NCBI RefSeq assembly: GCF_003991155.1
Contig: NZ_CP031295.1
DNA from: Escherichia coli
Lineage (GTDB): Bacteria > Pseudomonadota > Gammaproteobacteria > Enterobacterales > Enterobacteriaceae
Length of the DNA: 64,000 bases
Reading direction: 5' to 3' (one strand)
Within the stretch, counting starts at the first letter, position 1, and each line of letters begins with the position of its first letter. Below are positions 34,501 to 37,500 of this stretch, piece by piece. The position numbers are program-made.

Positions 34501-37500
34501 AGAAGCCACTGGAGCACCTCAAAAACACCATCATACACTAAATTAGTAAGTTGGCAGCGTCACCTTTTGCGTCTATAGTCATGATGTCAAATGAACGCGT
34601 TTCGACAGGAAATCATCATGAATAAATATCAGGCAGTTATTATTGGTTTTGGCAAGGCTGGAAAAACATTAGCCGTCACGCTGGCAAAAGCAGGTTGGCG
34701 TGTGGCTCTCATCGAACAATCAAATGCAATGTATGGCGGGACCTGTATTAATATCGGCTGTATCCCAACCAAAACATTGGTTCATGACGCACAGCAGCAC
34801 ACAGATTTTGTCCGTGCCATACAGCGTAAAAATGAAGTGGTTAATTTTTTACGTAATAAGAATTTTCATAATCTTGCGGATATGCCCAATATCGACGTGA
34901 TCGACGGCCAGGCGGAGTTTATCAATAATCATAGCCTGCGTGTTCATCGGCCTGAGGGAAATCTGGAAATTCATGGCGAGAAAATTTTTATTAATACCGG
35001 TGCAAAAACCGTGGTTCCGCCAATTCCTGGAATTACCACCACGCCTGGTGTATATGACAGCACCGGATTACTTCATCTAAAAGAATTGCCTGGGCATTTA
35101 GGTATTTTGGGCGGCGGATATATTGGCGTTGAGTTCGCCTCTATGTTCGCTAATTTTGGCAGCAAGGTAACCATTTTAGAAGCAGCTTCGCTGTTTTTGC
35201 CTCGGGAAGATCGGGATATTGCTGATAACATCGCGACGATTTTACGCGATCAGGGCGTCGATATTATCCTCAATGCCCATGTGGAGCGAATCAGTCACCA
35301 TGAAAATCAAGTGCAAGTGCATAGCGAGCACGCCCAACTGGCGGTGGATGCACTGTTAATAGCTTCCGGTCGTCAACCGGCTACCGCTTCTTTACATCCA
35401 GAAAATGCCGGTATCGCAGTAAACGAGCGCGGGGCAATTGTCGTTGACAAGCGATTACATACCACCGCAGACAATATTTGGGCGATGGGAGATGTTACCG
35501 GCGGGCTGCAATTTACTTACATATCACTAGATGATTACCGCATTGTACGTGATGAGTTACTGGGTGAAGGCAAACGTAGTACTGATGATCGGAAAAATGT
35601 GCCTTATTCCGTATTTATGACACCGCCACTGTCCAGGGTTGGTATGACAGAAGAACAAGCCAGAGAGAGTGGTGCTGATATTCAGGTGGTGACATTGCCT
35701 GTAGCTGCAATTCCGCGCGCCAGAGTGATGAACGATACCCGTGGGGTATTAAAAGCGATTGTTGATAATAAAACCCAACGTATATTAGGGGCATCACTGC
35801 TGTGTGTTGACTCCCACGAGATGATCAATATAGTGAAAATGGTGATGGATGCCGGGCTGCCTTATAGCATATTACGCGATCAGATATTTACTCATCCGTC
35901 GATGAGCGAATCACTCAATGATCTATTTTCATTAGTCAAATAAACTCAAAATCAGACGCCAGAACAAATATTCTGGCGTCTCAGAGAAAATAATCTTATT
36001 AATTCCCTGTTATTATATAACTTCTTAATCACTTCATTGGGCACTGTTGCAAAGTTAGCGATGAGGCAGCCTTTTGTCTTATTCAAAGGCCTTACATTTC
36101 AAAAACTCTGCTTACCAGGCGCATTTCGCCCAGGGGATCACCATAATAAAATGCTGAGGCCTGGCCTTTGCGTAGTGCACGCATCACCTCAATACCTTTG
36201 ATGGTGGCGTAAGCCGTCTTCATGGATTTAAATCCCAGCGTGGCGCCGATTATCCGTTTCAGTTTGCCATGATCGCATTCAATCACGTTGTTCCGGTACT
36301 TAATCTGTCGGTGTTCAACGTCAGACGGGCACCGGCCTTCGCGTTTGAGCAGAGCAAGCGCGCGACCATAGGCGGGCGCTTTATCCGTGTTGATGAATCG
36401 CGGGATCTGCCACTTCTTCACGTTGTTGAGGATTTTACCCAGAAACCGGTATGCAGCTTTGCTGTTACGACGGGAGGAGAGATAAAAATCGACAGTGCGG
36501 CCCCGGCTGTCGACGGCCCGGTACAGATACGCCCAGCGGCCATTGACCTTCACGTAGGTTTCATCCATGTGCCACGGGCAAAGATCGGAAGTGTTACGCC
36601 AGTACCAGCGCAGCCGTTTTTCCATTTCAGGCGCATAACGCTGAACCCAGCGGTAAATCGTGGAGTGATCGACATTCACTCCGCGTTCAGCCAGCATCTC
36701 CTGCAGCTCACGGTAACTGATGCCGTATTTGCAGTACCAGCGTACGGCCCACAGAATGATGTCACGCTGAAAATACCGGCCTTTGAATGGGTTCATGTGC
36801 AGCTCCATCAGTAAAAGGGGATGATAAGTTTATCACCACCGACTATTTGCAACAGTGCCCTGTGGAGCACGATCAGGATGGCAGAGGAGAAGCTGAGTTC
36901 TTATTACCGGAAATCGATTATTCCCCGGTATCTGGTAACTGGCGCTCCCTTCCTTCTGGCCTGATGTATAGGCTCAGCGAACTCTCTGTTCTCAGCTACG
37001 AAGCTGTCGTGTGTGTAGATAATGTGTTTGTTGAAGATACTCCTTATGGTGGAGCGGGTGAATATAGTTTGCATAAAAACGCAGCTATGTTGGGAGTAAA
37101 AGCACTGCGGTTATCACGAGAACTGAGAATGTTATGTGGCCTCCCTCTGCACGGCCTTTCCGATACACTATCGCCAACGAGGTTGGTATTGTTGAAAGCC
37201 AGAGGTAAAACACTCCAAAAGGAGTACGAAATGGTAAAGAAGTCTAAAAAGACCGAGCAAGAGATTGAGGATTTCATAAAGGGGACATCATGAGTGGCCC
37301 ACAATTGCTTTCCCTGCCAGGTTCTTTTTTAACGCCTCCGGCAACATTACCTGTTGCCATTGATTACCCGGCTGCGCTGGCACTACGTCAGATGGCACTT
37401 GTGCAGGACGAATTACCAAAATATCTGTTGGCGCCGGAGATCAGCGCCCTGCTCCACTATGTACCGGATCTGCACCGCAAAATGTTGCTGGCCACCCTGT

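What the first reader, a model, noticed from the sequence alone, without database searches (positions are those of the whole stretch)
36040..36859. Third IS26 copy is a sequence variant
Copies 1 and 2 encode identical transposases. Copy 3 has H8Y and P69T substitutions and a G-to-A change in the leader (TTTTGCTG to TTTTACTG). This suggests it was acquired separately from the other two copies rather than arising by replicative transposition within this plasmid.
Basis: seen in the sequence. Interest (0 to 1): 0.2.

Follow-up and report, generated by a model that had tools for sequence, protein, structure and literature searches.

The report
Old backbone IS26 allele, not new
One of three IS26 insertion sequences on this resistance plasmid differs by three bases because it is an older copy inherited with the plasmid backbone, while the other two arrived later with the resistance genes; this is ordinary.

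Summary
The IS26 at 36040-36859 (minus strand) differs from the two identical copies (5621-6440, 30202-31021) at exactly three bases. In IS26 numbering these are G48A (leader), C85T (H8Y) and C268A (P69T).

The differences are not sequencing errors. The same 820-bp allele sits at the same left-end junction, next to a truncated F-backbone ORF, an integrase gene and parM, in all twelve other sequenced examples I checked. About 120-130 PLSDB plasmids and 125 complete E. coli records carry an IS26 at this junction, including plasmids that lack the neighbouring copy.

Alleles carrying 48A were never seen away from this junction. At the junction, public plasmids show a series: canonical, G48A, G48A+C85T (the commonest) and the three-SNP form.

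The variant is therefore a vertically inherited marker of an IncF (FIA/FIB/FIC) backbone lineage. The canonical copies bound a later-acquired resistance region.

It is not IS15-delta-1/IS26-v1 (G184N). Functional consequences are untested. P69T looks neutral. H8Y lies beside the essential residue F9. Interest is low.

The parts
36040..36859 (-). IS26 copy D, the three-SNP allele (820 bp). The right inverted repeat (IRR) is at 36040-36053 and the left inverted repeat (IRL) at 36846-36859.
   Evidence: 99.63% identical to copies A and C, with perfect 14-bp terminal repeats. It is identical to the IS26 at the same junction in L001-L010, pZ1323HSL0045-2 and pCP66-6-IncFIC.
36092..36796 (-). tnp26 coding sequence of copy D (234 aa plus stop), encoding Tnp26 H8Y P69T. 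RefSeq relatives give this protein the accession WP_065304467.1.
   Evidence: translation; accession in relatives; F4, F9 and D78/D138/E173 intact.
36812..36812 (-). SNP G48A (IS26 numbering), in the tnp26 leader 16 nt upstream of the ATG and 6 nt upstream of the GGAG Shine-Dalgarno sequence.
   Evidence: The state is derived relative to IS1006.
36775..36775 (-). SNP C85T, giving H8Y. It lies in the disordered N-terminal segment (M1-D12), next to the essential residue F9.
   Evidence: Domain map from PMC8477213. Family conservation at position 8 is H51/Q26/R5/Y1 of 83 homologues.
36592..36592 (-). SNP C268A, giving P69T. It lies in the linker between the HTH domain and the catalytic residue D78.
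   Evidence: Family conservation at position 69 is P35/T23/G10 of 83 homologues. This is the most recent of the three changes: 40 E. coli records carry it against 99 with 48A+85T.
5621..6440 (+). IS26 copy A, canonical sequence, at the left boundary of the resistance region.
   Evidence: Both of its flanks match a copy in pCP66-6-IncFIC.
30202..31021 (-). IS26 copy C, canonical and identical to A. It is in the same orientation as D and sits at the boundary between the resistance region and the backbone, where relatives have an IS3-family element.
   Evidence: The copy is absent at this position in pCP66-6-IncFIC and pZ1323HSL0045-2.
14796..15614 (+). IS1006 (819 bp), an IS6-family element with the same 14-bp ends as IS26 but 75% nt identity.
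   Evidence: A relative annotates the transposase as IS1006 family, WP_001067784.1.
31022..36039 (.). The 5,018-bp segment between the directly oriented copies C and D, holding an IS3-family remnant, IS1 and rclA. Structurally it is a potential translocatable unit or pseudo-compound transposon.
36787..37293 (+). A 168-aa ORF that starts inside the left end of IS26 D, antisense to tnp26, and reads out into a 5'-truncated backbone gene. G48A changes its codon 9 from A to V.
   Evidence: ORF. Searches show different protein accessions for the D-type and canonical-type fusions. One search shows an IS26-free version of the backbone gene in NZ_CP074358.1.
6441..30201 (.). Resistance region bounded by the inverted copies A and C: sul2, ISVsa3, floR, IS1006, TnAs3, a class 1 integron (dfrA12-aadA2-cmlA1-aadA1-qacL) and tet(M).
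   Evidence: 100% identity over 24.5 kb to NZ_CP055020.1, whose annotation was read.

Best explanation
Copy D is an ordinary, intact IS26 isoform that belongs to the plasmid backbone, not to the resistance region. An IS26 became fixed long ago at one spot in an IncF (FIA/FIB/FIC) plasmid lineage. Its left end abuts a truncated backbone ORF upstream of an integrase gene and parM.

At that locus the element carries lineage-specific changes. G48A and C85T (H8Y) are the common pair, and C268A (P69T) was added later in a sub-lineage that includes this window. The allele has since been inherited vertically with the backbone.

The two canonical copies A and C arrived separately with, or during rearrangement of, the resistance region they bound. 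Copy C created the present IS26-5 kb-IS26 arrangement.

What is shown and what is inferred:
- Shown: sequence identity, junction identity, the allele distribution and the backbone synteny.
- Inferred: the order of events and an origin of the SNPs at the site.
- Inferred from published experiments (PMC10433875, PMC7885326): because all three mismatches lie within 268 bp of the left end, Tnp26-mediated targeted conservative reactions with canonical IS26 partners should be disfavoured at D's left end. Occasional gene conversion would then generate the mixed alleles seen at this and neighbouring copies.
For: 1. The variant is identical elsewhere at the same junction.
- The variant is 100% identical, with the same left (IRL) junction ATCCTGATCGTGCTCCACAG|IS26, in L001-L010, pZ1323HSL0045-2 and pCP66-6-IncFIC.
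- All 24 contigs read for the exact H8Y+P69T protein share the same neighbours on the IRL side.

2. The junction is widespread.
- A 481-bp junction probe finds 119 PLSDB records, and a 145-bp probe finds 129.
- 125 complete E. coli records carry the junction.
- In E. coli, 99 records carry 48A+85T and 40 carry 268A, out of about 5,830 records with IS26.

3. The variant is rare away from the junction.
- In PLSDB only 121 of at least 5,000 IS26-bearing records match the variant end at 99% or better, and 119 of the 5,000 include the flank.
- At most about 2 records lacking the junction therefore share any of these SNPs.

4. Several alleles occupy the same IRL junction.
- Canonical: L032 and L033.
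- G48A only: L034.
- G48A+C85T: L011-L015, L017 and L018.
- Three SNPs: the window and others.
- The H8Y-only protein is listed in 410 index blocks, against 115 for the double mutant.

5. D lies inside the backbone.
- It sits in a 33-kb block collinear with an annotated F backbone.
- Relatives lacking copy C still have D.

6. The D states are derived: the outgroup IS1006 has G, C and C at the three sites.

7. In pCP66-6-IncFIC, D is the only one of 10 IS26 copies or partial copies with any of the three SNPs.
Against: - SNP density is uneven. There are 3 differences in 820 bp of IS26 and 0 in the adjacent 2,541 bp of backbone, between the window and the plasmid with canonical IS26 at the site. 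The chance of that under uniform mutation is (820/3361)^3 = 0.015. This fits arrival of an already diverged IS26, or conversion, better than slow drift at the site.
- The nested allele series fits stepwise mutation. It fits equally well repeated recombination with canonical copies that keeps only the SNPs nearest the left end. Direction cannot be decided without a backbone phylogeny.
- C85T alone occurs at two unrelated sites (L016, L019). C268A alone occurs at several sites (L021-L029). Either these SNPs recur or they move between copies.
- No 8-bp target duplication flanks D, so the original insertion event is not preserved.
Confidence: 0.8

Rival explanations
1. A pre-existing variant IS26, already carrying G48A and C85T, was circulating elsewhere and entered the ancestral plasmid as such, by copy-in or cointegrate formation. 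The SNPs would then predate the insertion rather than arising at the site.
For: - All three differences fall in the IS and none in 2.5 kb of adjacent backbone (p about 0.015).
- C85T-only copies exist at unrelated sites (L016 and L019).
- Multi-allelic IS26 populations are common: one relative carries five alleles in a single plasmid.
Against: - No copy carrying 48A was found away from this junction in 49 contigs read.
- The E. coli and PLSDB counts show no such copies either (versus 18).
- Canonical and G48A-only alleles occupy the same junction.
Confidence: 0.2
2. D arose from A or C (or they from D) by replicative transposition within this plasmid, and the three differences are later mutations or sequencing errors.
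For: - All copies are full length with perfect ends.
- C and D are in direct orientation 5 kb apart, as expected after some IS26 events.
Against: - The identical three-SNP allele at the identical junction occurs in more than 100 independent assemblies, including plasmids without copy C.
- There are no shared or reverse-complement 8-bp target duplications among the flanks of A, C and D.
Confidence: 0.02
3. The substitutions are functional and selected. H8Y, next to essential F9, together with G48A in the leader, would change transposase activity or expression. That could stabilise the backbone copy by lowering its activity, or alter the IS-derived fusion ORF that reads into the backbone.
For: - H8 lies in the M1-D12 segment, whose F4 and F9 residues are essential for end binding (PMC8477213).
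- Y is rare at position 8 in the family, at 1 of 83 homologues.
- The allele has not been seen at new sites.
- Both 5' SNPs hit paired bases of a predicted leader hairpin that encloses the ribosome-binding site and ATG, weakening it from -14.3 to -8.3 kcal/mol.
- G48A changes codon 9 of the outward fusion ORF.
Against: - The hairpin is no more stable than shuffled sequence (z = -0.6; 45 of 200 shuffles fold as well).
- Position 8 tolerates H, Q and R. T is the second most common residue at position 69.
- A P69T-only copy shows the signature of intramolecular replicative inversion, an inverted 8-bp AAAAGATC duplication in L024 compared with L025, so P69T does not abolish activity.
- Copy-in events are rare, so absence of new sites is weak evidence.
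Confidence: 0.15

Closest known systems
IS26 (canonical sequence, Tnp26 WP_001067855.1; copies A and C of this window)
   Same: - 820 bp with identical 14-bp terminal inverted repeats.
- A single 234-aa DDE transposase, with F4, F9, R49, W50, D78, D138 and E173 intact.
- 99.63% nt and 99.1% aa identity, which makes it an isoform under the ISfinder rule quoted in PMC6807381.
   Different: Three base changes: G48A, C85T (H8Y) and C268A (P69T). The allele was found essentially at one genomic junction only, whereas canonical IS26 is found in thousands of contexts.
IS26-v1 / IS15-delta-1 (G184N, enhanced activity; Pong et al. 2019 as cited in PMC6807381, PMC7986276 and PMC9019673)
   Same: Also a three-base variant of IS26, and it coexists with canonical copies in the same plasmids. 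For example, pZ1323HSL0045-2 carries three such copies.
   Different: - IS26-v1 differs at nt 459, 613 and 614, giving one amino-acid change (G184N) in the catalytic domain.
- D has canonical bases at those positions. It differs instead at nt 48, 85 and 268, giving two amino-acid changes in the N-terminal segment and linker.
- IS26-v1 is seen at many sites. In the samples read here, D's allele was seen at only one left junction.
The G48A+C85T (H8Y-only) IS26 allele at the same junction in related IncF plasmids
   Same: Same left and right junctions, same backbone (0 differences in up to 1.4 kb) and the same first two SNPs.
   Different: It lacks C268A (P69T). It is more widespread: 410 versus 115 index blocks, and at least 59 versus at most 40 complete E. 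coli records. It is the likely parent of D's allele.
IS1006 (element B in this window)
   Same: An IS6/IS26-family element with identical 14-bp ends. Its transposase is 85% identical to Tnp26 and has H8 and P69.
   Different: It is 819 bp with only 75% nt identity, so it is a different IS, not an isoform. It has G, C and C at the three variant positions, so it is not the donor of D's changes.

Membership tests
IS26 (isoform level, ISfinder rule) | More than 95% nucleotide identity and/or more than 98% transposase similarity to IS26 (rule quoted in PMC6807381) | tested here: met
   817 of 820 nt (99.63%) and 232 of 234 aa (99.1%) match copies A and C. Their transposase matches the one annotated WP_001067855.1 in relatives. 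A direct comparison with the ISfinder or X00011 entry was not possible with these tools.
IS26 / IS6 family | Perfect 14-bp terminal inverted repeats GGCACTGTTGCAAA | tested here: met
   Exact matches at 36040-36053 and 36846-36859.
IS26 / IS6 family | A single DDE transposase with the N-terminal F4/F9 motif, an HTH domain (R49, W50) and catalytic D78, D138 and E173 (PMC8477213) | tested here: met
   An intact 234-aa ORF with all seven residues present. Pfam DDE_Tnp_IS240 and rve are on record for the exact protein.
IS26 / IS6 family | An 8-bp target site duplication after copy-in insertion | tested here: not met
   The flanks are CTTCATTG and CTGTGGAG. No direct or inverted match exists with the flanks of A or C. 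This is common for IS26 after conservative, recombinational or deletion events, and it does not exclude membership.
IS26 / IS6 family | [quoted passage not shown] | not testable with these tools
   A mating-out assay is needed. The only indirect evidence is for the P69T-only allele, which shows an inverted 8-bp duplication in L024 compared with L025.
IS26-v1 / IS15-delta-1 | G184N caused by GG>AA at nt 613-614 (with or without nt 459 G>A); described as 3 bp and one amino-acid difference from IS26 (PMC6807381) | tested here: not met
   D has canonical bases at 459, 613 and 614, and G184 is retained. Its differences are at 48, 85 and 268.
IS15-delta-2 | A single base difference from IS26 (PMC6807381) | tested here: not met
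   D differs at three bases. The position of the IS15-delta-2 change could not be retrieved.

The most novel reading that the evidence does not exclude
The alleles at this one junction may be a natural record of how sequence mismatches shape IS26 behaviour. The alleles are canonical, 48A, 48A+85T and 48A+85T+268A, and a neighbouring IS26 in a Salmonella sub-lineage carries the rare 268A alone.

The three left-end mismatches would bias Tnp26-mediated targeted conservative reactions with canonical partners to D's right end. This would keep the left junction fixed while the right flank turns over. Four different right flanks are seen on one left junction. Branch-migration-linked gene conversion would move single SNPs between copies.

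If so, the allele is both a clock-like marker for an epidemic IncF lineage and field evidence for effects so far shown only in laboratory crosses (PMC10433875).
Probability: 0.3. Interest if true: 0.35.

Novelty: already known. Interest (0 to 1): 0.15.

Why it matters
It matters little as a discovery. It is IS26, and the allele is already present in well over a hundred public records under its own RefSeq protein accession.

Its practical value is as a marker. The three SNPs identify which IS26 in a multi-copy plasmid belongs to the backbone, and which sub-lineage of a widespread livestock- and human-associated IncF (FIA/FIB/FIC) resistance plasmid family is present. That helps reconstruct the order of IS26-mediated rearrangements. 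The case also warns that IS26 SNPs can be exchanged between copies, so they are useful but not infallible provenance markers.

Tried and rejected
1. Target-site duplications. No 8-bp direct or reverse-complement match exists among the flanks of A, C and D. A simple single inversion relating the window to L001 was checked by hand from the and 15 flanks and does not fit.

2. Identity with IS15-delta-1/IS26-v1. Rejected, because the positions differ.

3. A leader hairpin (nt 48-94) enclosing the ribosome-binding site and ATG. Both 5' SNPs weaken it. It is rejected as evidence because the canonical hairpin is no better than shuffled sequence (z = -0.6).

4. A simple sigma-70 scan of the left end on both strands. 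It shows no site created or destroyed by the SNPs.

5. A solved structure to place H8 and P69. No IS6-family transposase is in the PDB; only weak retroviral integrase hits were found.

6. IS1006 as a conversion donor. Rejected, because it has the canonical bases at all three sites.

7. An apparent excess of records at 99% or better (235, against 125 with the junction). The clean IS-only probe found no excess of the 48A+85T allele (99 records). At least part of the excess is flank-only matches to IS26-free backbones, as seen in one listed example; the rest was not itemised.

8. Metagenome contigs L027 and L030, which carry 268A alone at D's junction. I gave these little weight because short-read assemblies can be chimeric across IS26.

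9. Pong et al. 2019 and Harmer et al. 2021, the catalogues of IS26 variants. They are not in the held library, so I could not check whether this allele has a published name.

10. The donor of the divergent rclA tract. It was not found in 5,426 complete E. coli genomes.
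Full report
**Observation**

The 14-bp IS26 terminal repeat occurs eight times in the window, against 0.06 expected by chance, and defines four elements. 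Copies A (5621-6440, +) and C (30202-31021, -) are 820 bp and identical to each other. Copy D (36040-36859, -) differs from them at exactly three bases:

| Window position | IS26 nt | Change | Effect |
|---|---|---|---|
| 36812 | 48 | G>A | leader, TTTTGCTG to TTTTACTG |
| 36775 | 85 | C>T | H8Y |
| 36592 | 268 | C>A | P69T |

The fourth element, B (14796-15614, 819 bp), has the same ends but only 75% nt identity. There are no partial IS26 copies. None of the IS26 copies has an 8-bp target duplication, and no cross-copy flank matches exist.

**The differences are real**

A 100% identical 820-bp allele occurs in twelve independent public sequences, each with the same left-end junction (ATCCTGATCGTGCTCCACAG|IRL). 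These are L001-L010, pZ1323HSL0045-2 and pCP66-6-IncFIC, from E. coli and Salmonella of animal, human and environmental origin. RefSeq gives the encoded protein its own accession, WP_065304467.1. Canonical Tnp26 is WP_001067855.1.

**Where D sits**

- Window 31022-64000 is collinear at 99.65% with the annotated F-type backbone of pZ1323HSL0045-2. The order is IS3 element, IS1, rclA, D, integrase, MipZ-like ATPase, parM, umuDC, leading region, tra.
- D is therefore embedded in the backbone.
- Copies A and C are inverted relative to each other. They bound a 23.8-kb resistance region holding sul2, ISVsa3, floR, IS1006, TnAs3, a class 1 integron and tet(M).
- Copy C lies where relatives have an intact IS3-family element. 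It is absent at that position from pCP66-6-IncFIC and pZ1323HSL0045-2, both of which still carry D.
- An IS26-free version of the backbone on D's left side exists in NZ_CP074358.1. This shows that D truncated a backbone ORF.

**Distribution**

| Collection | Measure | Count |
|---|---|---|
| PLSDB | records with the junction, 481-bp probe | 119 |
| PLSDB | records with the junction, 145-bp probe | 129 |
| PLSDB | records matching the variant end at 99% or better, of at least 5,000 with IS26 | 121 |
| Complete E. coli genomes (5,426) | records with the junction | 125 |
| Complete E. coli genomes | records with 48A+85T | 99 |
| Complete E. coli genomes | records with 268A, of about 5,830 with IS26 | 40 |

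- Almost every PLSDB record that matches the variant end also has the junction.
- Exact-protein look-ups agree with these counts.
  - All 24 contigs read for the H8Y+P69T protein share the left-side neighbourhood.
  - All copies with 48A+85T among the contigs read for the H8Y-only protein are at the same junction.

**An allele series at one junction**

I built a chimeric probe of canonical IS26 sequence joined to D's flank and read the hits base by base. The same left junction carries four kinds of IS26:

- Canonical: L032 has both flanks as in D, and L033 has another right flank.
- G48A only: L034.
- G48A+C85T: L011-L015, L017 and L018. This is the commonest form, at 410 index blocks against 115 for the three-SNP protein.
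- The three-SNP allele.

The backbone to the right of D is 100% identical across carriers of the canonical, two-SNP and three-SNP alleles. The outgroup IS1006 has G, C and C at the three positions, so D's states are derived.

The right flank varies on this fixed left junction. It is rclA in most plasmids, but three other sequences occur in L008, in L011 and L033, and in L034.

**Interpretation**

D is the resident, vertically inherited IS26 of an IncF (FIA/FIB/FIC) backbone lineage. C268A marks a sub-lineage within the carriers of the two-SNP allele. A and C are later, canonical arrivals associated with the resistance region.

Whether the first two SNPs arose at the site or came in with the original insertion is not settled.

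- For an origin at the site: no 48A allele has been seen elsewhere, and canonical and intermediate alleles occupy the same junction.
- Against: three changes fall in 820 bp of IS and none in 2,541 bp of adjacent backbone (p about 0.015).
- The nested series could also be produced by recombination with canonical copies, which would retain only the SNPs nearest the left end.

**Exchange between copies**

- C268A alone occurs in a few Salmonella plasmids at another fixed left junction 13 kb from D. In pZ1323HSL0045-2 it shares the plasmid with the three-SNP D. In pCP66-6-IncFIC, D is the only copy carrying any of the SNPs.
- 268A is rare overall (40 E. coli records). Its presence in two copies of one plasmid therefore suggests transfer between copies.
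- Gene conversion between mismatched IS26 copies during targeted conservative reactions has been shown experimentally. The same study found that one or two mismatches, even more than 200 bp from an end, impede reaction at that end (PMC10433875). Another study found that identity at the reacting end is required (PMC7885326).
- All three of D's SNPs lie within 268 bp of the left end. These results predict that D reacts with canonical partners mainly at its right end. That is compatible with the fixed left junction and variable right flank, but I have not shown it.
- One pair of plasmids shows the inverted 8-bp duplication (AAAAGATC) expected of intramolecular replicative inversion by a P69T-only copy (L025 compared with L024). 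P69T therefore does not abolish activity.

**Function of the substitutions**

- H8Y lies next to F9, and P69T lies in the linker.
- Among 83 homologues below 90% identity, position 8 is H in 51, Q in 26, R in 5 and Y in 1. Position 69 is P in 35, T in 23 and G in 10.
- P69T is probably neutral. The effect of H8Y is uncertain.
- Both 5' SNPs weaken a predicted leader hairpin, from -14.3 to -8.3 kcal/mol. That hairpin is no more stable than shuffled sequence (z = -0.6), so I draw no conclusion from it.
- No IS6-family transposase structure has been solved.

**Comparison with known variants**

Under the ISfinder rule D is an isoform of IS26, at 99.63% nt and 99.1% aa identity. It is not IS26-v1/IS15-delta-1, which differs at nt 459, 613 and 614 (G184N). 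Three such copies in pZ1323HSL0045-2 served as a direct comparison. It is also not the one-base IS15-delta-2. I could not read the two papers that catalogue IS26 variants. A search for papers mentioning IS26 together with rclA found nothing. Using IS26 sequence variants as event markers is established practice.

**Verdict**

The feature is an ordinary IS26 allele already present in many public records. It is useful as a lineage and rearrangement marker, but it is not a new kind of element. Interest is low.

Noticed in passing
window 34572-36015 (rclA ORF 34591-35943 and the 96 bp up to 25 bp from D): All differences between the window and nine related loci over 31022-39800 fall in this 1.45-kb tract, which is bounded by IS1 and IS26 D. 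There are 12-20 SNPs plus a 1-bp indel that lengthens the ORF to 450 aa from 441 aa. The flanking backbone shows no shared differences. Relatives themselves show at least two rclA haplotypes. This looks like a homologous-recombination tract, perhaps with a host chromosomal rclA, since 5,116 of 5,426 E. coli genomes carry the gene. No exact donor exists among complete E. coli genomes; the best match is 99.2%.
   Followed up: partly
window 14796-15614: This is a fourth IS6-family element, IS1006. It has 14-bp ends identical to those of IS26 but 75% nt identity. It lies inside the resistance region next to a truncated ISVsa3/ISCR2-like ORF and TnAs3.
   Followed up: yes
NZ_CP149215.1 (L037-L039), 107,357 bp: This single relative plasmid carries seven IS26 copies of five alleles: three-SNP, P69T-only, three copies of G184N (IS26-v1), Y143N and canonical. 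Multi-allelic IS26 sets are therefore normal in this plasmid family.
   Followed up: yes
L024 (CP149247.1) versus L025 (CP196702.1): L024 has two inverted P69T-only IS26 copies whose new junctions share the 8-bp sequence AAAAGATC in inverted orientation. L025 has the single-copy parent arrangement. This is the signature of intramolecular replicative inversion by that allele.
   Followed up: partly
window 36787-37293 (+): An annotated 168-aa hypothetical ORF starts 73 bp inside IS26 D, antisense to tnp26, and continues into a 5'-truncated backbone gene upstream of the integrase. G48A changes its ninth codon from A to V, which is why RefSeq gives the D-type and canonical-type fusions different accessions. 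Whether it is expressed is unknown.
   Followed up: partly
window copies A (5621-6440) and C (30202-31021) compared with pCP66-6-IncFIC and pAB12-1-tetX4: Copy A has both flanks identical to a copy in pCP66-6-IncFIC. Copy C shares only its right (tet(M)-side) flank with a copy there; its left flank is joined to the IS3-family remnant, as in pAB12-1-tetX4. The window therefore differs from pCP66-6-IncFIC by an IS26-associated rearrangement at C's left end. That rearrangement may have removed the RepFIB-vapBC segment. A single inversion does not explain the flanks.
   Followed up: partly
L016 and L019 (chromosomal and plasmid contigs from other assemblies): IS26 copies carrying C85T (H8Y) alone, without G48A, sit at two unrelated sites. 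This is either recurrent mutation or an independent minor allele.
   Followed up: no
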